Shown here piece by piece: positions 583 through 62,650 of a stretch of DNA of 64,000 nucleotides. The stretch's first letter is position 1, and each line of letters begins with the position of its first letter. A program made the position numbers and the translations under genes. The notes under the pieces are model-generated. The model was not told where the DNA came from. It made no database searches and saw only the letters and a program-made list of their open reading frames with translations. The stretch covers positions 197,658-261,657 of the forward strand of contig JBJMLR010000009.1 in NCBI GenBank assembly GCA_045805205.1, read 5' to 3'. Source of the stretch: Bacteroidia bacterium. GTDB taxonomy: Bacteria; Bacteroidota; Bacteroidia; 2-12-FULL-35-15.

Positions 583-700
583 ACTAGGAGATTGCTTCGG
601 TCGTTCCTCCCTCGCAATGACGCTGGTAGGGAAAATCATCTGGTCAATAAGAGATTGCTTCGGTCGTTCCTTCCTCAATGGCGCGGGTAGGAGCCATCAC
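583..700. repeat. ~63-bp tandem duplicate (x2), each copy carrying a dispersed element of the gattgcttcg...ctcgcaatgacg type
   Basis: Direct reading: aataagagattgcttcggtcgttcc(t)cc... occurs twice (583-645 and 646-700) between two convergent genes. Confidence 0.7.
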
Positions 701-730
701 TTCATCACTCAATCACTTCATCCCCTTTTT

Positions 731-5194: not shown

Positions 5195-6019
5195 ATGATC
5201 ACTTTTCCAAATGCAAAAATCAATATAGGTCTGAACATCATCGGAAAGCGCGATGATGGATTCCATAATATCGAAAGCGTGATGTACCCGATCGGTTTAT
5301 GTGATGCGCTTGAGATCATCGGGAACAAGGAACCGGGTGCCGAACAGTTTATTTTTACTTCTTCGGGAATTGATATTCCCGGAAACGCGAAAGACAATTT
5401 ATGCCGCAAGGCTTATGACCTGATCTCAAGAGATTATGCGTTGCCGAATGTGCGTGTTCATCTTCATAAACACATTCCGGTTGGTGCGGGACTGGGAGGA
5501 GGATCCGCAGATGCGGCTTTTTTTATCCGGCTGCTGAACGAGAAATTTGAGATCGGCCTGGCATGGGGTGAGATGCATCATTATTCCCGTCAGCTTGGAA
5601 GCGACTGCTCCTTTTTTATTTCGAATAAACCGGCTTTCGCTGAAGAAAAAGGGGATCAGTTCGAATCTGTTTTGCTTGACCTGTCGGGGTATTACATTGT
5701 TTTAGTTTGTCCGCCGATCCATGTGAACACTGCGAAAGCCTACAGCGGTGTTAAGCCTCAAAAGCCGGTTCGTTCGCTTGAAGAAGATATTCAGAAACTT
5801 CCGGCTGCGCAGTGGAAAGATCATATTTACAATGATTTTGAGGATTCTATTTTTTCTCAGTTCCCGGAAATAAAAAAGATCAAAGAAAGCTTGTATGAAA
5901 AAGGGGCACTCTATGCTTCCATGAGCGGCAGCGGATCGTCGGTGTATGGATTGTTTGAACGTCCGGTGTTTTTGGAGACAGACTTTCCCGGGTGCTTTGT
6001 TTATGAGAGCGAGTTGTAA
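5195..6019 (+). CDS. ispE: 4-(cytidine 5'-diphospho)-2-C-methyl-D-erythritol kinase
   Basis: GHMP-kinase signature. KINIGLNIIGKRDDGFHNIESV and PVGAGLGGGSADAA are typical of IspE. Confidence 0.85.
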   Translation: MITFPNAKINIGLNIIGKRDDGFHNIESVMYPIGLCDALEIIGNKEPGAEQFIFTSSGIDIPGNAKDNLCRKAYDLISRDYALPNVRVHLHKHIPVGAGLGGGSADAAFFIRLLNEKFEIGLAWGEMHHYSRQLGSDCSFFISNKPAFAEEKGDQFESVLLDLSGYYIVLVCPPIHVNTAKAYSGVKPQKPVRSLEEDIQKLPAAQWKDHIYNDFEDSIFSQFPEIKKIKESLYEKGALYASMSGSGSSVYGLFERPVFLETDFPGCFVYESEL

Positions 6020-6023
6020 TGGT

Positions 6024-6085
6024 TTAAGTGATTAGGTGGCTAAGTAACCAAGTAACTTAGTGATTAGCGATTAAGTGACTGAATG
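6024..6085. repeat. degenerate 8-bp tandem repeat (GTRAYTRG family)
   Basis: gtttaagtgattaggtggctaagtaaccaagtaacttagtgattagcgattaagtgact lies directly after the ispE stop. Confidence 0.6.
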
Positions 6086-6094
6086 ATATTTCTT

Positions 6095-6523
6095 TTATCC
6101 CTTCCTGAAAAGTTTCGTATACCCTTTAACATAGATCTTCCGTTTCTCTCCGACAAAATTTCCGGTCAGGATCAGCTCCGTGCAAAATGCATGCAGGCCA
6201 TCCTTATCGATGGGCGTAAGATATTTGAACTGGTAGATCGTTACCTTGAATTGGTCTGCTTTCCCTGGAAGGAGAGGAGTGCTCGGAAGATTGGCGAAAC
6301 CTTTTCCGCCGCCATTGCAGCTTGAAATGATCAGCGGTTCGTTTCCGGTATTCTGAAATTTAAATTCGACATCACGATAAGTAGAGGTTGCTATTTTCCC
6401 GGTGCTGTCAAGTGGAATCACAACCAGCCCGATGTCGATGGTGTCCTTTTCAAGCTTCAGAACTCCCTGTGCGGGAATCAGGAATGGAACTAAAAGCAAT
6501 ATGATCGAAATTCTATTTTTCAA
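6095..6523 (-). CDS. DUF1573-like secreted protein
   Basis: Signal peptide. The FKFQNTGNEPLIISSCNGGGKG motif (F.F.N.G..PL.I) is characteristic of DUF1573 domains. Confidence 0.5.
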   Translation of the reverse strand: MKNRISIILLLVPFLIPAQGVLKLEKDTIDIGLVVIPLDSTGKIATSTYRDVEFKFQNTGNEPLIISSCNGGGKGFANLPSTPLLPGKADQFKVTIYQFKYLTPIDKDGLHAFCTELILTGNFVGEKRKIYVKGYTKLFRKG

Positions 6524-6573: not shown

Positions 6574-6620
6574 TTAGTTACCCAGTCACATAGTCACCTA
6601 ATCACTCGATCACTTCTGCG
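6574..6620. repeat. degenerate 8-bp tandem repeat (GTRAYTRG family, reverse orientation)
   Basis: ttagttacccagtcacatagtcacctaatcactcgatcact spans the 3' end of the permease gene. Confidence 0.55.
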
Positions 6621-7686: not shown

Positions 7687-7687
7687 T

Positions 7688-7777
7688 GGGTGATTAGGTG
7701 ACTGGGTGATTAGGTAACTAGGTGATTAGGTGACTGGGTAATTAGGTGACTGGGTAACTAGGTGACTAAGTAACTAC
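7688..7777. repeat. degenerate 8-bp tandem repeat, about 11 units (GGTGAYTRG)
   Basis: ggtgattag gtgactgg gtgattag gtaactag ... read directly. It overlaps the tgt 3' end. Confidence 0.85.
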
Positions 7778-10932: not shown

Positions 10933-11105
10933 CGGAATGGAGTGATCGAGTAATCAGGTGATAAGAGGGATAGCGTAAAGTGGGGAGGATAAAGTGTTAT
11001 GTGTACATCCCTTTCGATAGGTAGCTCTTTAAGATACTTTGCCTCTTTATCGTTTTACGATAATATTTCCCGGTTCACTTTTTCCTCTATTCCTTATCAC
11101 GATAT

Positions 11106-11732
11106 ATGTCTGTCGAAATAATCAAGAAGTACTTTCCCGGAATTACTGATCATCAGTACCAACAATTTTCTGAATTACAATCTCTTTACGAATATTGGAA
11201 TGCGCAGATCAACGTGATCTCGCGCAAGGATATCGATCTGCTGTATGAAAGACATGTGCTGCATTCGCTGGGTATCGCGAAAGTAATGCAGTTCTCAGCC
11301 GGAACGAATGTGATGGATGTTGGCTGTGGTGGTGGGTTTCCGGGTATTCCGCTCGCGATCCTCTTTCCTGAAGCGAACTTCCTGCTGGTGGATTCCATCG
11401 GCAAAAAAATAAAGGTTGTGAATGAAGTTGCTTCTGCGATCGGGTTGAAGAACCTGAAAGGAGAGCACAAACGTGCTGAAGAAGTAAAAGAGAAATTTGA
11501 ATTTATTGTCAGCCGTGCCGTAACCGAGTTCCCTGTTTTTTACCGATGGGTTCAGAATAAATTCAGCAAAAATCAATTCAATCCATTGCCGAATGGGATC
11601 CTGTATCTGAAAGGCGGTGATCTTTCAGAAGAATTCAAAGCTTTTCAGAAAAGAGCGGCCTTTTATGATCTGAAAGAATATTATTCAGAAGCGTTTTTCG
11701 AGACGAAGAAAGTGGTTTATGTGGGTGTTTAG
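11106..11732 (+). CDS. rsmG: 16S rRNA (guanine527-N7)-methyltransferase
   Basis: GidB-like. SAM motif VMDVGCGGGFPGIPLAILFPE and the LVDSIGKKIKV pattern. Confidence 0.85.
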   Translation: MSVEIIKKYFPGITDHQYQQFSELQSLYEYWNAQINVISRKDIDLLYERHVLHSLGIAKVMQFSAGTNVMDVGCGGGFPGIPLAILFPEANFLLVDSIGKKIKVVNEVASAIGLKNLKGEHKRAEEVKEKFEFIVSRAVTEFPVFYRWVQNKFSKNQFNPLPNGILYLKGGDLSEEFKAFQKRAAFYDLKEYYSEAFFETKKVVYVGV

Positions 11733-11733
11733 C

Positions 11734-11808
11734 GTGTTAAAGTGTTAAGGTGTTTGAGTGTTAAGGTGTTTAAAGTGTTTGAGTGTTAAAGTGTCAGGGT
11801 GTTGTAGT
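11734..11808. repeat. degenerate tandem repeat GTGTTWARR (about 9 units)
   Basis: gtgttaaagtgttaaggtgtttgagtgttaaggtgtttaaagtgtttgagtgttaaagtgtcagggtgttgtagtg. Confidence 0.7.
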
Positions 11809-11836
11809 GCCTATGTGTGCTTATCCGGATCATAGT

Positions 11837-12238
11837 ATGAAATTCTATGTGAATGTTTCAGTTCTGTTGGTTACGCTCTGCATGCTCGTATGCTGCGCGC
11901 CGCCACTGAAACACATGAAGCGTCCGGCAGAGATCCGGTACTATATTGTGGGGAGGATCAGGACTGCTGAGATTCCGGAGCCCGTCTTTAATGTAGCAGT
12001 GGATTCTCTCGATCCGATACTGGTCGAAAAACCCATAAGACTGAAGATTACCGATGCTGAACACTTTGAGATCGCATACCAGATCAACGGCGTTGAAGCA
12101 AGGAAACAGGGTTATTTCGGGAAAGATCTTAAGACTCCGGATCTGCAGCTGAATGTCACACTCACAGTGGAGCCCGACAGCGCCGGATTGCACGCGCTGA
12201 AAGATATTGATTTCGCATTTTCAGTGAAAGGAGAATGA
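11837..12238 (+). CDS. hypothetical lipoprotein
   Basis: An internal ATG gives MKFYVNVSVLLVTLCMLVCCAP, a signal peptide with a Cys. The ORF-track start at 11783 is likely too far upstream. Confidence 0.35.
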   Translation: MKFYVNVSVLLVTLCMLVCCAPPLKHMKRPAEIRYYIVGRIRTAEIPEPVFNVAVDSLDPILVEKPIRLKITDAEHFEIAYQINGVEARKQGYFGKDLKTPDLQLNVTLTVEPDSAGLHALKDIDFAFSVKGE

Positions 12239-12239
12239 G

Positions 12240-13883
12240 CTATCTGAGGATCAGTTTTTTTCTGCTTGCATGATCTCCTGAGCTGCATTCAATAAAATAA
12301 ATGCCTCTTGACTCTCCTTCCAGTTGGATTTCCTCTTTGTTCAGACTCGTTTGTTTTTTCAGGATGCATCTTCCAAGGTTGTCGGTAATCTTGACCGTTT
12401 TCGGACCCGGATCACTCATAGCGATACTGAAAACATCAGAAGCAGGATTCGGTGAAATGACAAATCCGTTTTTTTCATCGTTTGCCGGAACCGATGCCAT
12501 ACTTTCAGAAATTTTGGCTACAAACAGGTTTCCACTTCCGCTTGAATTGTAAAATGTCGTACTTCCAAAAGTAATGAAAGCGCTGGTAAAATGTCCGGTA
12601 GTGAAGATCGCGTTGGTTCCGGTCGATGTCACATCCTCACACCAGTCGGGGTTGCCGCCGCCAACGGATTGCACCCAGGAAAGCGTACCATCACTTTCAT
12701 ATTTTGCGAGAAAGCCGTCCTCCGACCCGGAGCTGCCTCCGTGGTTAAAAAGACCGGTACCCCCGAATGCAACCGGGTTGCTGGTGAAGGCACCGCAGAT
12801 GTAAGGATTGTCAGCGCTGTCGACCGTTAAGCCGATCCCGAGATCATAATCGTTCCCTCCGGCACTTGTTGCCCAAAGTGTATTTCCGGACGGATCCATT
12901 TTGGCAAGGATTATATCGTCCGAAGGAGGACTGACATTCGTAAGATTATAGCTGTCAAACGCAATGGAGCTGCCGCCGAAGCCTCCCGTAAAATAAACAT
13001 TTGCCGAGCCATCACATTTTATCGCACGGCTCCAGTTATTTCCGGCCGATCCGTATTCCTTTGCCCAGAGTGCTGTTCCGGAAGAGTTGTATTTTGCAAG
13101 ATAGATGTGTGCATATGTGTCGGAGGTGGATACGGTGTAGGCGCCGAATGTGCTGCTATTCTTATATCGCCCGGTGATCAGGACATTTCCCGCAACATCG
13201 GTACAGACTCCGTTGGCCTCATGTCCGTTGCTGCTTCCCGAGCTTCGTCCCCAGAGTCCGGCTCCGGACGGATCAACTTTTAACAGGAAGATATTATAGT
13301 CGGGACCGGCTGGCGGGATATTGACGGTATCATAAATGGCGCTTCCGCCGTCGAATGAGCCGGTTATATATACGTTAACGCCATCCGTCGCGATTCCATT
13401 GGTCATGAGATCAAAATTCGAAATAGCTTTTACCCAAACGACATTTCCGCTTCCATCCAGCTTCAGAATAAAACCATTGGTCAGGCCGCTGGCCGGACTC
13501 TTGTGCAGCATAAAAGAACCAAAAGCAAGCGAATCGCTGAAGAAGTACCCTGTCACATAGATATTACCGCTGGCATCAGCAACTACGTCCTGTGCAAGCT
13601 CCTCAAGGTAATTGCCAAATGCCTTCGCCCACATGAAGTTCCCGGAGCCATCGTATTTGGCGACGAAAATATCATATCCGCCGGCTCCTGTTATTGTGGT
13701 TCCGCCGAAATCCATGGTCGGACTAGTGAAGCCACCAGCCAGGACAAGGTTCCCCGAAGGGTCGTGTGCAATGTGCTCATAAAGTGTAGCGCACTGAGCG
13801 GATCTTGCCCAGTTCCATGTTGGCGTTTGTGCAGTAAGGAAATGAGAAATAAAAAGGCACAGCAGGAGTAAATTTTTTTTCAT
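12240..13883 (-). CDS. SBBP-type beta-propeller repeat protein with a T9SS C-terminal sorting domain
   Basis: Signal peptide. Repeated SGN..(V/I)TG.F motifs. C-terminus ISPNPASDVFSIA...IYFIEC... matches the Por/T9SS CTD pattern. Confidence 0.6.
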   Translation of the reverse strand: MKKNLLLLCLFISHFLTAQTPTWNWARSAQCATLYEHIAHDPSGNLVLAGGFTSPTMDFGGTTITGAGGYDIFVAKYDGSGNFMWAKAFGNYLEELAQDVVADASGNIYVTGYFFSDSLAFGSFMLHKSPASGLTNGFILKLDGSGNVVWVKAISNFDLMTNGIATDGVNVYITGSFDGGSAIYDTVNIPPAGPDYNIFLLKVDPSGAGLWGRSSGSSNGHEANGVCTDVAGNVLITGRYKNSSTFGAYTVSTSDTYAHIYLAKYNSSGTALWAKEYGSAGNNWSRAIKCDGSANVYFTGGFGGSSIAFDSYNLTNVSPPSDDIILAKMDPSGNTLWATSAGGNDYDLGIGLTVDSADNPYICGAFTSNPVAFGGTGLFNHGGSSGSEDGFLAKYESDGTLSWVQSVGGGNPDWCEDVTSTGTNAIFTTGHFTSAFITFGSTTFYNSSGSGNLFVAKISESMASVPANDEKNGFVISPNPASDVFSIAMSDPGPKTVKITDNLGRCILKKQTSLNKEEIQLEGESRGIYFIECSSGDHASRKKLILR

Positions 13884-13992
13884 GGCTTCTGTTTTTATTC
13901 AGAAACCTAAATTTTAATGCCATAGTTGACATAGGTCAATAAAACGAGACCCTTACGGAATGGAATTTTATAATGCTTGTCCCGGTACCTTT

Positions 13993-14238
13993 TTATAAAA
14001 ATCTTACCGACATGTGGCAGCCTTGTTTTCTGTATTTGACCAGGAAAGGAAATCTTCTGACCCACATCCATTTTTTAACTTTCGGTGTGGGAGCTTTCTG
14101 GCAGTCTCTCGGCCGGCCGGGCTCAATGATGCTTGTGCTTGTCTGCACTTGCGGTTTGCCTTTGCCTACCTGCGCATGAGAGAATGTAGTGAGAGAAAAA
14201 AAGAGAATGAAGAGGAGGAGAAGTTTTTTTGTTTTCAT
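13993..14238 (-). CDS. small secreted hypothetical protein
   Basis: 81 aa with a plausible signal peptide (MKTKKLLLLFILFFSLTTFSHAQ). No homology support, so it may be spurious. Confidence 0.25.
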   Translation of the reverse strand: MKTKKLLLLFILFFSLTTFSHAQVGKGKPQVQTSTSIIEPGRPRDCQKAPTPKVKKWMWVRRFPFLVKYRKQGCHMSVRFL

Positions 14239-14342
14239 ACCTCTATAACGGATCGCTTCCTGAAAGGTACAACTCTATAAAAAACAAAAGCCTTCCATTA
14301 TCAGGAAGGCCTTTGCCCGGGTAGTTATTATTGATTCATGTA

Positions 14343-16211
14343 TTATCTCACGATGCTGATCTTTTTGATCACAGTTCCTTCATTCGTTTTACAGCTCAGG
14401 GTATAGATGCCTTCGGCAAAAGTGCCTGCATCGATCACTGTTGTATTAGTAAAAGGAGTTTGTGAGCTGTATACGATCTGCCCGATCGCGTTGCTGATCG
14501 TCATGCTTTTTACCTCTTTGCCGCTTACGGTAATATTGATGAGATCAGTTGCCGGATTCGGGTAAACGGATACTGAATTGTCCAATGCATTTTCGTCAAT
14601 TCCTGTCAGGATATTTGCCATATCTCCAACCAGGTTGATCGGTCGGAAGATCTCCGTGATCCCTGCGGTTGCGCCGCCATACATCTGCGTTGATAATATT
14701 TTAGATGAGCCGGCGAGTCCGAGTGACAATAAACCTGCTGACGCGGTTGGCTTGATCGTTAATGTAATTGTTCCGATCTGCCCGGATCCGTTTAATACCT
14801 GTGTTTTATCATAACGTACTACCGCAGCGTCGATCTTGCCTGAAGCGTAATTGTCTTTGGTGATCATCAATTCGTTCGATGCATTTCCGAGCCAGTTGGT
14901 GGAAAGGTTTACGGAAACGGAGCCAGCGACGATCTGAGAAGGATCATAATTTATGGTGAAGGAATACCCGTAAAGTGTTCCGATCGGTTTTGCAGATGAC
15001 CCAAGATAGATCGGTGCGGTTACGGTTGTTCCTGCATAGGCAGAAGCTCCCGCGAACTGGATATACATTGTAGGATCAGCAGCAGTTGCTTCCGGCATTG
15101 CAGAAACGTTATTGTGTGTGTTATGACGCATGCCGTAGTTTGCATTGATCGCCGTCATGTCGCTGTTGTTGATCGTGCTGTCGCCATTGCTGTCGGCATA
15201 CTTCATGTTCAGAAGATCCTGGAGGTACATGAAATCGCTGAAGAAATTCGGCCAGTCAGTACAAGGCTGTGAAGTAAAGCTATTGCTTGCGGACGGACGT
15301 GCAGTTCCGGTTTGTCCATAATACATTCCCAGCGGAAAAATATCTTCCATATTTACTTCCCCGTCGCGGTTACAATCTCCGGCCCACACGCTGCAGTCGG
15401 AAACGATCTTCACTCCGTAGGTAGTATCGGTAGAAACGCCGTCGGAAATGATCACACGTGCAACATACGTTCCGAGCGCGCTGTAAAGGTGCTTAGGAGT
15501 TGCGGCAGTAGACGTATTTGCTGCTCCTGATGCAGGATCGCCGAAGTCCCAGTTATAGGATGTTGGAGTGCCGGTGTAATATACGGACATCATTGTGGAG
15601 TCGCCATAGCAGTTGCCGTTGATGTTTGAATACATGGTCGCATCGAGGCAATTCACAGCAACATTGATCAGCTGTGTTGATGTATCTGCCATCGATCCGC
15701 TGGTAGTAATGAGTGTTACGAGATAAGAGCCCGGACCCGGATAAAGGTGATAAGGAGCCGAAGCAGTGGAAGTATTATTTACTCCTGATGCAGGATCGCC
15801 GAAATTCCAGGAAGGAGTTCCGCCGCCGATGCTTTCATCGGTAAAATACATATAGTTGGAACCACCGCACCGGCTGCTGAAATCAGCCCCGAAGCAGTTG
15901 GTCCCTACCGTAATGATCTGTGTCTGGTAATCCCACTCAGCTCCTATGTTTACAAATAAGGTTACATAGTAAGTACCGGCAACAGGATACACGTGAAAGG
16001 TTGCAGTGTCGTGGTTAATGTTGACCATGGAAGTTGAATCGCCGAAATCCCAGGTATAAATCGCCATTTGGTCCTGTGCATAGAACCAAACCGTATCTCC
16101 CGCACAGGCGTTTGTGTGAGAGAAGGTTGCATTACATGCTTTTGCGGCATTTGCGCCGACGAAAAAAGCGACTAAGGCAACCAGCGTTTTTAAGAGTGTA
16201 AGTTTTTTCAT
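14343..16211 (-). CDS. PKD-domain protein with dockerin-like and cohesin-like segments and a T9SS C-terminal sorting domain
   Basis: Three WDFGD/NFGDP PKD signatures. CNRDGEVNMEDIF is a dockerin-like Ca-binding loop. C-terminus VYPNPATDLINI...GIYTLSCKT is a T9SS CTD. Confidence 0.65.
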   Translation of the reverse strand: MKKLTLLKTLVALVAFFVGANAAKACNATFSHTNACAGDTVWFYAQDQMAIYTWDFGDSTSMVNINHDTATFHVYPVAGTYYVTLFVNIGAEWDYQTQIITVGTNCFGADFSSRCGGSNYMYFTDESIGGGTPSWNFGDPASGVNNTSTASAPYHLYPGPGSYLVTLITTSGSMADTSTQLINVAVNCLDATMYSNINGNCYGDSTMMSVYYTGTPTSYNWDFGDPASGAANTSTAATPKHLYSALGTYVARVIISDGVSTDTTYGVKIVSDCSVWAGDCNRDGEVNMEDIFPLGMYYGQTGTARPSASNSFTSQPCTDWPNFFSDFMYLQDLLNMKYADSNGDSTINNSDMTAINANYGMRHNTHNNVSAMPEATAADPTMYIQFAGASAYAGTTVTAPIYLGSSAKPIGTLYGYSFTINYDPSQIVAGSVSVNLSTNWLGNASNELMITKDNYASGKIDAAVVRYDKTQVLNGSGQIGTITLTIKPTASAGLLSLGLAGSSKILSTQMYGGATAGITEIFRPINLVGDMANILTGIDENALDNSVSVYPNPATDLINITVSGKEVKSMTISNAIGQIVYSSQTPFTNTTVIDAGTFAEGIYTLSCKTNEGTVIKKISIVR

Positions 16212-16290
16212 TATATTATATAGTTAGAGTAGTTTATAAATAATGTTCAGTTTGATATTGAGATGTTTGGAAATCAATTTTAGTTGCATG

Positions 16291-16330
16291 GAGGGAAAAA
16301 AAAGGGGGAAGGGGAAAAAGAAAAAGGTGG
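16291..16330. repeat. ~40-nt pure polypurine tract
   Basis: ggagggaaaaaaaagggggaaggggaaaaaaaaaaggtgg lies between convergent genes. Confidence 0.8.
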
Positions 16331-16345
16331 CTGGAATTTACTCAT

Positions 16346-16395
16346 CCAGTCACCTAATCACTTAATCACCTAGTCACCCAATCACTAGTCACCCA
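16346..16395. repeat. degenerate 8-bp tandem repeat (GTRAYTRG family, reverse orientation) abutting the ABC transporter stop
   Basis: ccagtcacctaatcacttaatcacctagtcacccaatcactagtcaccc. Confidence 0.75.
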
Positions 16396-18255
16396 TCAAG
16401 CCAGCTGCATCTGCATATTGCTCAGGCTGCGGTACAATCCGTTATCGAGGTTCATGAGTTGTTCGTGGGTGCCGACTTCCTTAACCGTACCTTTTTCAAT
16501 CACAACGATCTTATCGGCTTTGCGGATCGTGGACAAACGGTGAGCAATTACGAAAGATGTTCTGCCAACCATCAGCTTGTCGAGCGCTTCCTGAACTACG
16601 CGTTCAGATTCAGAATCCAATGAGCTGGTCGCTTCATCTAAAATAAGAATGCTTGGATCTTTCAACACGGCTCTTGCAATTGCTATCCGCTGACGTTGTC
16701 CGCCGGAGAGCTTAATTCCGCGTTCGCCGACAACGGTTTCAAATTTTTCAGGAAATATATCGATGAACTCGAGTGCATTTGCTTTTCTTGCTGCTTCAAC
16801 GATCTCGGCAATGGTAGCATCCGGTTTTCCGTAAGCGATATTTTCTTTGATCGTACCGCCGAATAATAATACATCCTGGGGAACGATCGCCATGTTGTTT
16901 CTCAATTCCGTGAGTGAATAGCTTTTTGCATCTTTATCATCAATATAGAGTGTTCCCTTTTCAGGATCATAGAAACGAAGCAGTAAGCTGATCAGCGTAG
17001 ACTTTCCGGAACCGCTCGGTCCGACCACGGCAATCGTCTCTCCTTTTTTCGCAGTCAATGTGATATCTCTTAATACCTGGATCTCCTTACGGGAAGGATA
17101 AGTGAATGCGACGTTCTCGAAACGTACATTTCCATTTACCCGGGTAATGTCCTTGTGTGCTGCAGTAATATCCAACGGCTCCGGTTTCTCATCGAGGATA
17201 TCAAAGACACGCTCGACCGATCCGATCGCTTTCTGGAGCTGTGCGTACAGCTCGGCAATACCACCGAAGGAAGCACCTACGAAAGCGGAATACATAATGA
17301 ATGAAACCAGATCACCTGTCTCCAGCTGGTGCTGCTGAGCCAGGTAAACACCGTACCAGATCACCGCGACGATAGAACCAAAAAGGCAGAAGATAATAAA
17401 GGATGCAAAAGCACCACGGTATTTACCTCCTTTGATCGCGTTGTGAATGATCTCCTCGGTGCTCTTTTTATAACGCGCATTTTCGAAGAACTCATTTGCA
17501 AATGCTTTTACATTGGTGATTCCCTGCAATGTTTCTTCGATCACCGTGTTCGATTCGGCAATTTTTTCCTGCACATTCTTGGACGTTTTGCGGATGAACC
17601 TTCCGAATATAACAGCAGATGCGGCAACAACGGGAACGATGGCCAGCATGAGCAAGGTCAGCTTCGGCGAGATCACCAGCAACAGGAAGATGCCTCCGAA
17701 GATCAGCATGAACTGCCGCAGGAATTCAGCGATGGTCGTTGTGAGTGTATCCTGGATCTGGGCGATATCGGCGGACATACGGCTATTGAGATCACCTACA
17801 CGCTGCTGCACAAAGAAGCTCATCGGAAGAGAGATGAGGTGAGCATATACAGCCTGGCGAAGAGAAGCGAGTGTGTTTTCGGTGTAGTTGACAAAAAGAT
17901 AAATGCGGAAATAAGAGAATACGGATTGTAAGCTGAGCACGATGAGCAGGTACAGCCCGATATCGTTCATGTTTGAAAAATACGTTTCCTGGAAATGCTT
18001 CACCGACCCGCCCATCATGCTTACACCCTGAACCGCTGTCTCCGCTTTTTTAGGATCGATCACATTGATCAGCGCACCGAGCATGATCGGAAATAATAAA
18101 GCAGTGAATGAAGTCAGGAGCAAGAATCCCAGTCCGAGGTAAAGCTTCCATTTGTGCTTCCCCGTATACTGGAATATGCGCAGTGCTTTTTTGAGTGATT
18201 CTTTATTGACTTTTGCTTTCGGGAGATCATCCGTTTCCTTAACTTTTCTTGCCAT
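16396..18255 (-). CDS. ABC transporter permease/ATP-binding protein (MsbA-like exporter)
   Basis: N-terminal six-TM domain. Walker A GPSGSGKST, signature LSGGQRQRIAIARA and Walker B ILILDEATSSLD. Confidence 0.85.
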   Translation of the reverse strand: MARKVKETDDLPKAKVNKESLKKALRIFQYTGKHKWKLYLGLGFLLLTSFTALLFPIMLGALINVIDPKKAETAVQGVSMMGGSVKHFQETYFSNMNDIGLYLLIVLSLQSVFSYFRIYLFVNYTENTLASLRQAVYAHLISLPMSFFVQQRVGDLNSRMSADIAQIQDTLTTTIAEFLRQFMLIFGGIFLLLVISPKLTLLMLAIVPVVAASAVIFGRFIRKTSKNVQEKIAESNTVIEETLQGITNVKAFANEFFENARYKKSTEEIIHNAIKGGKYRGAFASFIIFCLFGSIVAVIWYGVYLAQQHQLETGDLVSFIMYSAFVGASFGGIAELYAQLQKAIGSVERVFDILDEKPEPLDITAAHKDITRVNGNVRFENVAFTYPSRKEIQVLRDITLTAKKGETIAVVGPSGSGKSTLISLLLRFYDPEKGTLYIDDKDAKSYSLTELRNNMAIVPQDVLLFGGTIKENIAYGKPDATIAEIVEAARKANALEFIDIFPEKFETVVGERGIKLSGGQRQRIAIARAVLKDPSILILDEATSSLDSESERVVQEALDKLMVGRTSFVIAHRLSTIRKADKIVVIEKGTVKEVGTHEQLMNLDNGLYRSLSNMQMQLA

Positions 18256-28534: not shown

Positions 28535-28852
28535 TTATTTCTTCTTTTTTAATGTGAACAGCACTTCATCCAGCTGGTTAAATTTGTCTTCCCACATTTT
28601 GCGGAACTGTTCGATCCATTTATCGATCTCTTTCATTTTGTTAATCTCTAGTGTATAGTATATTTCTCTGCCAACTTGTTCCTGGGTAACGACTTCACAT
28701 TCAGCAAGGATCTGCAGGTGCTTTGAAACCGCCTGGCGGCTGGTATTGAAATGTTCAGCCAGCGCGTTGGGTGTCATGGCATTCAGTGCGATCAGTGTAA
28801 TGATGGCTCTGCGGGTTGGATCGGCAATGGCCTGGAAGATGTCTCGTCTCAT
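28535..28852 (-). CDS. ArsR/SmtB-family transcriptional regulator
   Basis: [19 protein letters not shown] ... [21 protein letters not shown] (wHTH of the ArsR family). Confidence 0.8.
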
Positions 28853-28860
28853 TTCTTTAA

Positions 28861-28898
28861 TAGGTGATTAGGTAACCAGGTAACGGGGTGACTAAGTG
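28861..28898. repeat. degenerate 8-bp tandem repeat (GTRAYTRG family) in the ArsR upstream region
   Basis: taggtgattaggtaaccaggtaacggggtgactaagtg. Confidence 0.6.
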
Positions 28899-30513: not shown

Positions 30514-30547
30514 CGGATTGCAAAGTTAATCAGAATATGGTAGTTAT

Positions 30548-30605
30548 TTATTGTGATAATTAATTAATGTGATAATTAGGATAATTTGGTAATTAGTTAA
30601 TGGAG
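30548..30605. repeat. AT-rich degenerate tandem repeat (GTGATAATTA variant)
   Basis: ttgtgataattaattaatgtgataattaggataatttggtaattagttaatgg. Confidence 0.7.
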
Positions 30606-30917
30606 TAATCGAAAAGTACAGCTGTAATGCCTACGCTTAAAGGATTCCACTGCCATCGTCAGGCATGGCAGGATATAGCTCTGCAAAAAGAAACTGAATG
30701 CCTTAATTCTTAACAGAGAAATTGAATTAAAAGACCTGATTTTTAACGTTTTTGGCGAAGAAAAGCTTGTATCTAGAGTGTTTTTAAATGAAGTAGATAT
30801 CGCCAATTATTTCCCAGAATTCCAATCCGAGTCATATATACAAGGATATACTGGATAGTTTTCCCACGTGATTTCTACCTGCTTTTTACTATCTTTCGGA
30901 TAGCAAAAAACAACTCC

Positions 30918-58257: not shown

Positions 58258-59016
58258 ATGTCGAAAATAGCCAAAAACATTAGTGTTCTGAGGGCACTAA
58301 AAAAATTATCCCAAACTCAGTTAGCGGATGAATTGAACATTTCGAGGTCCCGTTTAGGTTCTTATGAAGAAGGAAGAGCAGAGCCTCCGTATGATCTTTT
58401 GATCAAAATTGCGGATCATTTTCATGTTGCTATTGATGCTTTGGTGAGAGGAGATCTTGCAAAAACAGATCCGGACTCTTTAATGGAGATCGGTAAGAAC
58501 AGGATCCTGTTCCCGGTGATCGTGGATCGTCAAAACCAGGATATGGTGGAAGTGGTTCCTGCAAAAGCGGTAGCCGGTTATTTAAATGGTTATGCTGATC
58601 CTGAATTCATCGAAGATCTTCCAACAATGAACCTTCCTTTCAAGATCATTGGAAAGCACCGTGCATTTTCTATCAAAGGAGATTCTATGCCTCCGTTAAA
58701 AGATGGAACTTTTGTAGTCGGTAAATATGTAGAATCGCTGAGCGAGATCAAAGAAGGACAAACGTATATCGTGCTTACAAAAGAAGATGGTGTGGTGTAC
58801 AAACGCCTATACCGTGAAGACAAAAAAAGCACCGATGTTTTCCAGTTTCATTCGGATAACCCGGCATATTCACCTTATACTGTGAAGTCGGAAAACATCA
58901 TCGAGATCTGGAGCTTTATCTGCAGTCTGAATATCGGCGAGTTCAAGCCACAGGATCTCAACCTGGAAAGCATGATCAGATTCCTGCAGTCGTTCAGAGT
59001 GGAGATGGGGAAATAA
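58258..59016 (+). CDS. XRE-family HTH plus S24 (LexA/CI-like) peptidase-domain repressor
   Basis: HTH is LKKLSQTQLADELNISRSRLGSYEEG. The C-terminal S24 part has the FSIKGDSMPP (G-D-S-M) nucleophile motif and a later VYKRL lysine. Start chosen at MSKIAKN. Confidence 0.7.
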   Translation: MSKIAKNISVLRALKKLSQTQLADELNISRSRLGSYEEGRAEPPYDLLIKIADHFHVAIDALVRGDLAKTDPDSLMEIGKNRILFPVIVDRQNQDMVEVVPAKAVAGYLNGYADPEFIEDLPTMNLPFKIIGKHRAFSIKGDSMPPLKDGTFVVGKYVESLSEIKEGQTYIVLTKEDGVVYKRLYREDKKSTDVFQFHSDNPAYSPYTVKSENIIEIWSFICSLNIGEFKPQDLNLESMIRFLQSFRVEMGK

Positions 59017-59090
59017 TAATATCATAGCCCGGGGTTAAAAATAATATCATAGCCCGGGGTTAAAACCACCGGGCTATGATATTATTATTT
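59014..59090. repeat. REP/BIME-like palindromic unit: a 26-bp direct repeat x2 plus an inverted copy forming an ~18-bp-stem hairpin
   Basis: aataatatcatagcccggggttaaaa appears twice, followed by ccaccgggctatgatattatt. It sits immediately upstream of the IS200-like/RAYT gene. Confidence 0.7.
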
Positions 59091-59162
59091 CATAGCGGTC
59101 GGCTTTAGTCGGCAAAACAGCAAAACAGTTAAAATTGCCCGCTCCGGCATAAATGATGATCT

Positions 59163-59540
59163 ATGTCATATGTAAGAGTGTGGGTGCATCTGGTGTTTTC
59201 AACAAAAAACAGGGAGACACTGCTGAAAAAAGAAATCCGCGAGCAAATCCGACAACACATCAAAGAAAATTGCAAGGAGAAAGGTATTTTCCTCCAGGCA
59301 ATTAATGGCTACGAAGACCACTTACATTGTCTTATATCCCTGGGCTGTGACCAAACCATCGCCAAAGTTGCCCAAATGATAAAGGGCGAATCCTCTTATT
59401 GGATCAACAAGAACAAACTAGTACCCGGAGAGTTCATGTGGCAAAATGAATATTATGCCAATTCCGTTAGTGAGTCAGAAAAAAGAAAAATCGAAAGCTA
59501 TATCAGAAATCAAGAGAAGAAACATGCAATTTCAGGGTAA
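59163..59540 (+). mobile_element. IS200/IS605-family Y1 (HuH) transposase, possibly a REP-associated tyrosine transposase (RAYT)
   Basis: 125 aa. MSYVRVWVHLVFSTKNRE..., HuH motif HLHCLIS and the catalytic-Tyr region GESSYWINK. There is no companion tnpB. Confidence 0.8.
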
Positions 59541-62532: not shown

Positions 62533-62650
62533 CAATTAGTTAATGTGATAATTAGTTGATGTGATAATGTGCGGATTGTAAGGTATAGTTCTCTCTGTCA
62601 TTTGAGGGGAGCAAATTAACACATTGTCACATTATCATATTATTTAATTG
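62533..62650. repeat. AT-rich GTGATAAT-type tandem repeat with a downstream inverted partial copy
   Basis: ttaatgtgataattagttgatgtgataatgtg ... cacattgtcacattatcatattatttaattg. Confidence 0.6.

What the first reader, a model, noticed from the sequence alone, without database searches (positions are those of the whole stretch)
7688..7777. Genome-specific 8-bp tandem repeat family (GTRAYTRG) at gene ends, seen at six or more loci in 64 kb
Arrays of 4-11 degenerate 8-mers (ggtgattag, gtgactgg, gtaactag …) occur at 6024-6085, 6574-6620, 7688-7777, 16346-16395, 28861-28898 and, weaker, 10938-10966. They lie in either orientation and usually abut or overlap a stop codon. They are not CRISPR, having no spacers and units that are too short. 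Their density and gene-end placement suggest a function, for example a protein-binding terminator or boundary element, or a hyper-mutable simple-sequence locus. I do not recognise it as a described repeat class.
Basis: seen in the sequence. Interest (0 to 1): 0.5.

Follow-up and report, generated by a model that had tools for sequence, protein, structure and literature searches.

The report
Stop-codon-anchored octamer repeat arrays
The short 8-letter repeats are real and fill about a hundred gaps between genes in this uncultured freshwater bacterium. They always start exactly at a gene boundary and look like multiplied "arms" of a small selfish gene cassette, not transcription stop signals.

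Summary
All six arrays exist. Genome-wide the unit GGTGAYTR forms 79 strict arrays (447 units; reversed-sequence control 0). A second unit, GGTGTTWR, forms 35. None lies inside a gene.

The arrays are polar. The 5' end of the G-rich strand abuts a gene boundary, within 10 nt of a same-strand stop codon in 46 of 49 cases. The stop codon is usually the first TAR or TGA of the first unit, and the proteins keep their native ends.

The family is almost species-specific: 131 pattern hits here, 33 in one congener (G045), and none in 64 of 67 congeners. G045 has no spacer between tgt and lptG, so 7688-7777 looks like an 87-nt insertion here, or a loss in G045.

The terminator reading fails. Intrinsic terminators follow the arrays at the background rate, and the sense RNA of 7688-7777 is unstructured.

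All nine 23S-rRNA-IVS-protein genes (PF05635) in this genome are bracketed by inverted arms built of such units. One carries GGTGAYTR arms, and so do its closest homologues elsewhere.

Best reading: these are dispersed arm repeats of such cassettes, resized by slippage. The mobility mechanism is unknown. This scan has noted similar octamer-arm cassettes on other DNA. I found no paper describing the link.

The parts
7688..7777 (+). Family A array, 11 units of GGTGAYTR, with the G-rich strand on +. It fills the whole tgt-lptG spacer. Its 5' end lies 1 nt from the lptG TTG start (7686, minus strand) and its 3' end overlaps the tgt stop (7774-7776). On the mRNA strand it reads as the C-rich copy.
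   Evidence: Tgt ends ...RL* and LptG ends ...AQK*, as in 40 relatives. G045 has a 0-nt spacer here. The sense RNA folds at -1.2 kcal/mol, z +1.3.
6024..6085 (+). Family A array, 7 units, with the G-rich strand on +. It starts 5 nt after the stop of the GHMP-kinase (ispE-like) gene (6017-6019) and ends 10 nt before the stop of the convergent DUF1573 gene (6095).
6574..6620 (-). Family A array, 5 units, with the G-rich strand on the minus strand. It starts directly after the lptG stop (6610-6612) and runs towards the DUF1573 gene start (6523).
10933..11105 (+). Decayed family A hairpin that fills the spacer between the ECF sigma-factor gene and gidB (rsmG). A weak G-rich arm (10938-10966) starts at the stop codon, and a weak C-rich arm ends before the gidB start.
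   Evidence: Fold -47 kcal/mol, but z only -1.3. The same spacer in G045 holds a clean A-type hairpin.
16342..16395 (-). Family A array, 6 units, with the G-rich strand on the minus strand. The stop codon TAG of the minus-strand gene lies in its first unit.
28861..28898 (+). Family A array, 4 units, with the G-rich strand on +. Its 5' end lies about 10 nt from the start (28852) of the minus-strand gene 28535-28852.
11724..11803 (+). Family B array (GTGTTWAR, about 9 units). The gidB stop codon TAG (11730-11732) lies in its first unit.
62534..62643 (+). Hairpin of a third unit family: arms of AATTAGTTAATGTGAT and their inverted copy. The same units occur at 30544-30609.
694..722 (-). Short A-like array (AAGTGATG, 3.5 units).

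Best explanation
The arrays are non-coding 'arm repeats' of a class of small palindromic cassettes. The full-length form carries a 23S-rRNA-intervening-sequence protein gene (PF05635, a four-helix bundle related to Avd) between a G-rich arm and its inverted C-rich copy. In this species one arm family (GGTGAYTR) has multiplied into about 80 to 120 arrays, most of them solitary, and a second family (GGTGTTWR) into about 35.

Shown: each array sits with fixed polarity. The 5' end of its G-rich strand is flush with a gene boundary. That boundary is usually a stop codon that doubles as the first TAR or TGA of the first unit, so the protein is unchanged. Less often it is the start codon of a gene on the opposite strand. 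Also shown: most sites checked are not shared between the two species that carry the family.

Inferred: the arrays arrive by insertion of pre-formed sequence, not by local origin, because one 8-mer cannot arise independently at about 80 sites in one species. After seeding they grow and shrink by replication slippage in steps of 8, 16 or 24 bp, and they decay by point mutation.

Shown or inferred from position: they are transcribed as 3' UTR or inter-gene RNA. Single arms are unstructured in the C-rich sense. Paired arms can fold into a hairpin that brings the upstream stop and the downstream start together.

Not shown: what moves them (the PF05635 protein, a host enzyme or recombination), and whether the host gains anything. 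I think the host most likely gains nothing.
For: Anatomy and numbers.

Polarity: in 49 of 71 family A arrays the G-strand 5' end faces a same-strand gene 3' end, at a median of -3 nt and within 10 nt in 46 of 49. The other end lies a median 60-91 nt from the next gene. The outer end is within 10 nt of a gene in 53 of 71 arrays and the inner end in 10 of 71; Fisher p = 2e-13.

Stop codons: the stop lies in the first unit in 36 of 62 arrays. TAG makes up 50 % of these stops against 22 % genome-wide, p = 6e-8. The native C-termini of Tgt and LptG are kept.

Distribution: 131 pattern hits in G000, 33 in G045, 4 in G056, 2 in G023 and 0 in the other 64 congeners. Only 4 of 400 other Bacteroidota genomes have a match, each at one or two loci. 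G045 lacks the 7688-7777 array. About 10 of 14 G045 array loci have no array in G000, 2 are shared and 1 holds another unit family.

Cassette link: all 9 PF05635 loci of G000 and all 29 inspected in congeners are bracketed by inverted arms of tandem 7-8-nt units that start at the upstream stop codon. The G000 copy at C10:15291-15650 has family A arms. Its closest homologues have A or A-like arms at different loci: G045 at 66 % identity, G021 at 70 %, G071 and G013 at 64 %. Among the 67 congeners, G045 is the only one with clean A arms and the only one with dispersed A arrays. On unrelated metagenome contigs, 5 of 132 loci chosen for A arrays have a PF05635 gene within 50 nt. The A-arm label clusters on the protein tree: 4 changes against 6.6 in shuffles, with 3 of 500 shuffles as low.
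Against: Only one of about 80 family A arrays is part of a PF05635 cassette. Seven other PF05635 cassettes in the same genome have 0-2 dispersed arrays, so a cassette alone does not cause spread. The family B cassette protein does not group with proteins that have B-type arms. PF05635 has no known catalytic activity. No reverse transcriptase gene is present. The two Y1 transposase genes are not flanked by arrays. So no mobilising enzyme is identified. G000 and G045 may be sister species, in which case the co-occurrence of cassette and arrays counts as one event, not two. The metagenome loci were chosen for having A arrays, which biases the tree test.
Confidence: 0.55

Rival explanations
1. Host-useful RNA or DNA element. 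The arrays would be kept because they tune expression of the flanking genes. In the C-rich sense they could give an unstructured leader before a start codon, which suits Bacteroidota translation that does not rely on Shine-Dalgarno pairing. As hairpins they could couple the stop of one gene to the start of the next. They could also serve as 3' UTR binding sites for a species-specific protein.
For: Placement is exact at stop and start codons. The sense RNA of 7688-7777 is free of structure right up to the lptG start. Hairpin forms span the whole distance from stop to start. The core AGGTGAT is complementary to the canonical 16S rRNA 3' tail; this rests on my own knowledge and was not tested.
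Against: Most sites are not conserved even in G045, the one other species that carries the family. 64 of 67 congeners do without the family. The same spacers hold unrelated elements, or nothing, in other relatives. Units of other families share no sequence, so no single binding factor fits all of them. Old copies decay, for example 10933-11105.
Confidence: 0.2
2. Purely local simple-sequence repeats. Each array would have arisen in place by polymerase slippage, with no transfer between sites.
For: Slippage clearly acts on the arrays: there are perfect runs, local periods of 8, 16 and 24, and assembly breaks in long arrays. Surveys of long simple-sequence repeats report 5-11-nt units in scattered bacteria (Mrazek 2007, as summarised in PMC4679880).
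Against: The same 8-mer occurs at about 80 sites in one species and at none in 64 congeners. Independent origin of one unit at that many sites is not credible. The fixed polarity and the start at the stop codon are also not expected from slippage alone.
Confidence: 0.08
3. Transcription terminator or domain-boundary element. Arrays at gene ends would stop RNA polymerase, directly or through a bound protein.
For: The arrays are strongly enriched directly after stop codons. Some convergent gene pairs have only an array between their two stops, for example 6024-6085.
Against: Canonical intrinsic terminators follow the arrays at the background rate, 9 of 51 against 351 of 2024. 35 of the 51 stop-anchored arrays are followed by the start of a co-directional gene, often within a few nt. 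Termination there would silence that gene. There is no hairpin or U-run. After stop codons the RNA is G-rich, which is the opposite of a Rho-loading site (my own knowledge of rut sites).
Confidence: 0.07
4. Contingency (phase-variation) loci. Changes in unit number would switch neighbouring genes on and off.
For: Unit number is variable. Some arrays lie between a promoter region and a start codon, for example 28861-28898.
Against: The arrays flank housekeeping genes of all kinds (tgt, lptG, gidB, ispE-like). Most lie after the stop codon, not in the reading frame or in a promoter spacer. A period of 8 outside a coding region has no frame effect.
Confidence: 0.05

Closest known systems
TAACTGA heptamer direct repeats of Beggiatoaceae, Cyanobacteria and five Bacteroidetes (MacGregor 2015, PMC4679880)
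   Same: Both are dispersed intergenic tandem arrays of a short unit with stop codons in all frames in one orientation. Both sometimes overlap the stop codon of the upstream gene. Both have a sporadic, species-specific distribution that suggests horizontal spread. The core TAACTG is shared with the GGTAACTG variant found here.
   Different: The unit there is 7 nt, here 8 nt. Most of those arrays sit just upstream of start codons in the forward orientation, whereas most here start at the stop codon. That paper names no associated gene: it contains no mention of '23S', 'intervening' or 'four helix'.
STRR (short tandemly repeated repetitive heptamers) of heterocystous cyanobacteria, and the wider class of long simple-sequence repeats (Mrazek 2007)
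   Same: Many intergenic loci carry tandem 5-11-nt units, with several unit families per genome and no known function.
   Different: The phylum and unit length differ. To my knowledge neither polar anchoring at stop codons nor a link to a flanked gene has been described for them.
REP / REPIN elements with their RAYT transposase (Proteobacteria)
   Same: Both consist of one gene copy bracketed by the repeat, many gene-less copies of the same repeat in intergenic DNA, and family-specific pairing of gene and repeat.
   Different: The bracketed gene here is PF05635, not a Y1 (HuH) transposase. The genome's two Y1 genes are not flanked by arrays. The repeat here is a tandem array, not a single palindrome. 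Solitary arms do not fold.
23S rRNA intervening sequences carrying an S23p (PF05635) reading frame (Leptospira, Coxiella and others)
   Same: The same protein family is enclosed by inverted repeats that can form a long stem. The insert sits where the stem can bring the two host flanks together.
   Different: Here the cassettes lie between protein-coding genes, not in 23S rRNA helices. The arms are tandem octamers, and the arms also occur alone in large numbers. RNase III processing is untested.

Membership tests
Long simple-sequence repeats (LSSR, units of 1-11 nt) | Head-to-tail repeats of a unit of 11 nt or less, longer than chance allows | tested here: met
   There are 79 strict arrays against 0 in the reversed-sequence control. 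TRF scores reach 279.
STRR of cyanobacteria | Heptanucleotide unit | tested here: not met
   The period is 8, with higher-order periods of 16 and 24.
STRR of cyanobacteria | Dispersed at many intergenic sites, with several unit families per genome | tested here: met
TAACTGA direct repeats (PMC4679880) | Unit TAACTGA | tested here: not met
   The unit here is GGTRAYTR. Only the 6-nt core TAACTG is shared, and only by some variants.
TAACTGA direct repeats (PMC4679880) | Most arrays lie a few nt upstream of a start codon in forward orientation | tested here: not met
   49 of 71 arrays start at a stop codon. 22 of 71 face a start codon.
REPIN-RAYT system | A Y1 (HuH) transposase gene flanked by the repeat | tested here: not met
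   Two PF01797 genes exist. Neither is flanked by octamer arrays.
REPIN-RAYT system | The repeat unit is a short palindrome that forms a hairpin on its own | tested here: not met
   The C-rich strand of the single arm at 7687-7776 folds at -1.2 kcal/mol, z +1.3. Only inverted pairs of arms can pair.
REPIN-RAYT system | Cognate pairing: one flanked gene lineage goes with one repeat family | tested here: inconclusive
   It holds for the 'MRPHKNL' PF05635 lineage and A-type arms. It is not shown for family B. Seven other cassettes have no dispersed arms.
23S rRNA intervening sequence with S23p gene | Inserted in 23S rRNA (helix 25 or 45) | tested here: not met
   All cassettes and arrays lie between protein-coding genes. 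There is no rRNA match in the window.
23S rRNA intervening sequence with S23p gene | PF05635 gene enclosed by inverted repeats | tested here: met
   This holds for the cassettes: 9 of 9 in G000 and 29 of 29 in congeners. It does not apply to the window arrays, which enclose no such gene.
23S rRNA intervening sequence with S23p gene | Excised from the transcript by RNase III | not testable with these tools
   No read data were available.
CRISPR array | Repeats of about 23-50 nt separated by unique spacers | tested here: not met
   The units are 8 nt and directly adjacent.
Intrinsic terminator | G+C-rich hairpin followed by a U-run | tested here: not met
   The arrays contain no such structure. 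Real terminators lie downstream of them at the background rate.
Diversity-generating retroelement (Avd plus reverse transcriptase) | A reverse transcriptase gene next to the Avd-like gene | tested here: not met
   There is no PF00078 match anywhere in the genome.

The most novel reading that the evidence does not exclude
The PF05635 four-helix-bundle protein and its tandem-octamer arms would form a previously undescribed kind of mobile system, comparable in logic to REPIN-RAYT. Each protein lineage would recognise its own 8-nt unit and, alone or with a host nuclease or recombinase, copy arm arrays to stop codons (the TA|R junction). This would explain the species-specific bursts seen here. It would also suggest an origin for heptamer and octamer arrays in other phyla, such as STRR and TAACTGA, and for the ORF-bearing rRNA intervening sequences.
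Probability: 0.2. Interest if true: 0.85.

Novelty: new variant of a known kind. Interest (0 to 1): 0.55.

Why it matters
Short tandem 7-8-nt arrays between genes have been known for decades in cyanobacteria and a few other groups, without an origin or a function. This genome is an unusually clean case for three reasons. One unit burst to about 80 sites in one species. The insertion geometry is exact: the stop codon is the first triplet of the array. There is also a candidate parent element, a PF05635 cassette with the same arms, whose homologues carry the same arms in other hosts.

If the link holds, it gives a testable origin for this repeat class. It also gives a first functional handle on PF05635 proteins, which are widespread and have no assigned role outside diversity-generating retroelements.

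Practically, such arrays break short-read assemblies: four contig ends here lie in arrays. They also mark fast-changing sites that could serve for strain typing.

Tried and rejected
1. Terminator role: rejected.
2. Cassettes with other cargo: inverted A arms around window 6095-6523 (DUF1573) and around C4:101074-102811 (ABC ATPase and lipoproteins) turned out to be ordinary genes with an array at each end. The DUF1573 gene follows lptG in a relative without arrays.
3. RAYT-type parent: two Y1 transposase genes were found, but they are flanked by other palindromes.
4. Reverse-transcriptase-based origin (telomerase-like or DGR-like): the genome has no RT gene.
5. Growth polarity: unit variants show no gradient from the outer to the inner end.
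6. Known RNA families: no Rfam match in the window.
So copy-number variation among strains and transcript ends could not be tested.
8. Stop codons as a general property: family B units of the GGGTGTTT type contain no stop in either strand, so 'stops in all frames' is not a general feature of these arrays.
9. G-quadruplex potential: only the GGG-containing variants fit that motif and other unit families do not, so I did not pursue it.

Full report
**1. What is in the window**

The main array, 7689-7776, has 11 units. A 16-nt period fits it at 90 % (GGTGATTA-GGTGACTG dimers). A phased scan recovers 6027-6081 (7 units), 6575-6614 (5), 16347-16393 (6), 28863-28894 (4) and a weak 10941-10964 (3).

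The window also holds a second unit family, GTGTTWAR, at 11724-11803. A third, with AATTAGTTAATGTGAT arms, lies at 30544-30609 and 62534-62643. No Rfam family matches anywhere in the window.

The neighbouring genes are ordinary housekeeping genes: a GHMP kinase, a DUF1573 protein, LptF/LptG permease, tRNA-guanine transglycosylase, an ECF sigma factor and GidB/RsmG.

**2. Genome-wide picture**

The window is C9:197658-261657 of a 4.65-Mb, 15-contig, 45.6 % G+C genome. Period 8 and its multiples 16 and 24 dominate all strong tandem repeats.

After merging, 192 arrays remain. The two large families are A (GGTGAYTR) and B (GGTGTTWR or GGGTGTTT). With a strict pattern of at least three units, family A has 79 arrays (447 units) and family B has 35 (200 units). 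The reversed or complemented genome gives none. None of the 105 TRF-defined A and B arrays has its midpoint in a called gene.

Two long arrays broke the assembly. The 3' ends of contigs C5 and C9 are reverse-complementary family B arrays. The 3' ends of C3 and C12 are reverse-complementary GGAAAAA arrays.

**3. Polarity**

I oriented every family A array on its G-rich strand.
- In 49 of 71 arrays the 5' end faces the 3' end of a gene on the same strand. The median distance is -3 nt, and 46 of 49 lie within 10 nt.
- In the other 22 the 5' end faces the start of a gene on the opposite strand. The median is 16.5 nt once GTG and TTG starts are allowed.
- The 3' end of the G-rich strand lies a median 60-91 nt from the next gene.
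- The outer end is within 10 nt of a gene in 53 of 71 arrays, the inner end in 10 of 71 (p = 2e-13).

The stop codon is inside the first unit in 36 of 62 cases, either as TA|R at the unit junction or as the TGA of GTGAY. TAG is the stop in 50 % of these genes against 22 % genome-wide (p = 6e-8).

The proteins are not altered. Tgt ends ...RL* and LptG ends ...AQK*, exactly as in 40 relatives.

The main array of this finding is the start-codon type. Its anchored end is 1 nt from the lptG TTG start. Because the spacer is completely filled, its other end overlaps the tgt stop.

**4. Not a terminator**

Nine of 51 stop-anchored arrays are followed by a textbook hairpin plus T-run. That is the same fraction as in array-free 3' spacers, 351 of 2024. 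So the arrays lie in the transcribed 3' UTR, upstream of the real terminator where there is one.

Thirty-five of the 51 are followed by the start of a co-directional gene. The mRNA-sense strand of 7687-7776 is essentially unstructured (-1.2 kcal/mol, z +1.3). The G-rich strand folds weakly through G-U pairs (-20.9 kcal/mol, z -2.2).

**5. Who else has them**

The organism belongs to an uncultured Bacteroidota lineage known from freshwater, groundwater and soil MAGs. The nearest LptG proteins are 85-88 % identical.
- All 68 species genomes of the genus were searched with a 3.5-unit pattern. G000 has 131 hits, G045 has 33, G056 has 4 (one locus), G023 has 2, and the other 64 have none.
- Of 400 other Bacteroidota genomes from about 180 genera, only four have a match, each at one or two loci.
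- The same unit does occur elsewhere.

**6. Turnover**

G045 is about as close to G000 as any congener (LptG 87 %, coding DNA about 65-80 %). Its arrays show the same polarity, typically ...TA|AGTRACTAGG at the stop.

Of 14 G045 array loci:
- two are orthologous to family A arrays of G000 (G045 C2:1034693 = G000 C5:879531; G045 C3:93013 = G000 C7:67122 and 67336), with different unit numbers and variants;
- one holds a different unit family in G000;
- about ten have no array in G000.

In the region syntenic with the window, tgt and lptG of G045 are directly adjacent. Relative to G045, 7688-7777 is therefore an 87-nt insertion in G000, or a loss in G045. The sigma-gidB spacer of G045 holds a clean A-type hairpin, with its G arm at the stop and its C arm at the gidB start. 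Window 10933-11105 is the decayed counterpart of that hairpin.

In 40 other relatives the tgt-lptG spacer ranges from 0 to 339 nt. It holds unrelated hairpins or arrays with other units, or nothing.

**7. The cassette link**

A lead from earlier notes of this scan said that octamer arrays are the arms of cassettes carrying a PF05635 gene. I tested this here.
- G000 has nine PF05635 loci. All nine are bracketed by inverted arms made of tandem 7-8-nt units. The G-rich arm starts at the stop codon of the upstream gene, and each cassette has its own unit.
- The copy at C10:15291-15650 has family A arms. The copy at C5:785073 has family B arms.
- All 24 congeners searched have PF05635 genes. All 29 loci inspected show the same architecture, often at the same site across species: between the fadB-like and fadA genes, between sufB and sufC, and after an enoyl-CoA hydratase gene.
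- The closest homologues of the C10 protein in the genus carry A or A-like arms although they sit at other loci (G021 70 %, G045 66 %, G071 and G013 64 %). The G045 copy has clean GGTGACTA arms.
- G045 is also the only congener with dispersed A arrays.
- On metagenome contigs picked only for A arrays, 5 of 132 loci have a PF05635 gene within 50 nt, in hosts of 32-62 % G+C. One of these cassettes has the gene flipped between its arms.
- On a protein tree the A-arm label is clustered but not monophyletic.

Limits of this evidence:
- Only A and B have multiplied. The units of the other seven cassettes are not dispersed.
- The family B protein does not group with proteins that have B-type arms.
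- G000 and G045 may share the family by descent.
- The metagenome sample is biased by the way it was chosen.

**8. What could move them**

The genome has no reverse transcriptase gene. It has two Y1 (IS200-like) transposase genes, one of them in the window at 59166-59540. They are flanked by other palindromes, not by arrays. The C10 protein resembles two uncharacterised solved structures, 2gsc and 2rld. No mobilising enzyme is identified.

**9. Literature**

Full-text searches found no paper that links PF05635 genes to tandem-repeat arms. The closest description is the TAACTGA heptamer study (PMC4679880). It reports dispersed intergenic arrays in Beggiatoaceae, Cyanobacteria and five Bacteroidetes. 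It notes stops in all frames and occasional overlap with upstream stop codons. It suspects horizontal spread, but names no associated gene. That paper also summarises the LSSR survey of Mrazek 2007.

**10. Verdict**

The terminator idea fails. 'Hyper-mutable simple repeat' is true but incomplete. The best-supported reading (about 0.55) is that these are polar, gene-boundary-anchored arm repeats of PF05635-type palindromic cassettes. They would have spread within this species and then been resized by slippage, most likely as selfish DNA that is tolerated because it leaves coding sequences intact.

Earlier agents of this scan reported the same kind of octamer-arm cassette on other genomes. This case adds the quantified stop-codon geometry, the genus-wide species specificity, and the match between one protein lineage and one arm unit.

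Noticed in passing
window 59015-59540: A Y1 (IS200-like, PF01797) transposase gene lies at 59166-59540 (+). It is preceded by a perfect 18-bp palindrome (AATAATATCATAGCCCGG...CCGGGCTATGATATTATT) whose left arm is duplicated (25 nt x 2). The palindrome occurs nowhere else in the genome.
   Followed up: partly
window 11733-16397: This 4.6-kb stretch between gidB and the next conserved gene is absent from the syntenic region of congener G045, where the two genes lie 15 nt apart. It is bounded by a family B array on the left and a family A array on the right.
   Followed up: partly
window 62534-62643 and 30544-30609: A third unit family (AATTAGTTAATGTGAT). At 62534-62643 it forms a hairpin that starts shortly after a stop codon.
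   Followed up: partly
genome contig ends: C5 and C9 3' ends; C3 and C12 3' ends: The contigs end in reverse-complementary arrays: (GGGTGTTT)n with (AAACACCC)n, and (GGAAAAA)n with (TTTTTCC)n. Long arrays broke the assembly. The window ends 757 nt before one of these breaks.
   Followed up: partly
G000 C9:47612, C14:115170, C10:34478, C5:438917; G045 loci L265, L266, L271: A different dispersed hairpin element (GTCATTGCGAG...GAAGCAATCTCAT) often lies directly beside octamer arrays in both species.
   Followed up: no
G000 C1:38156-38873: Five to seven short family B arrays recur about every 120 nt in one 700-nt non-coding stretch. This is a higher-order repeat built of arrays.
   Followed up: no
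loci L040, L044, L061, L065, L074, L077 (tgt-lptG spacer of relatives): Another repeat class (...CTCACCCCTTTATCCCCTCTCC...GGAGAGGGG...) fills the same spacer in several relatives. This spacer has been colonised repeatedly by unrelated small elements.
   Followed up: no
loci L253-L255 compared with L259 (G045): After the gene ending ...LMEYGNS*, G021, G071 and G013 carry a full PF05635 cassette with A-like arms. G045 has only a solitary A array at that stop codon. This is a possible case of cassette loss that left one arm behind.
   Followed up: partly
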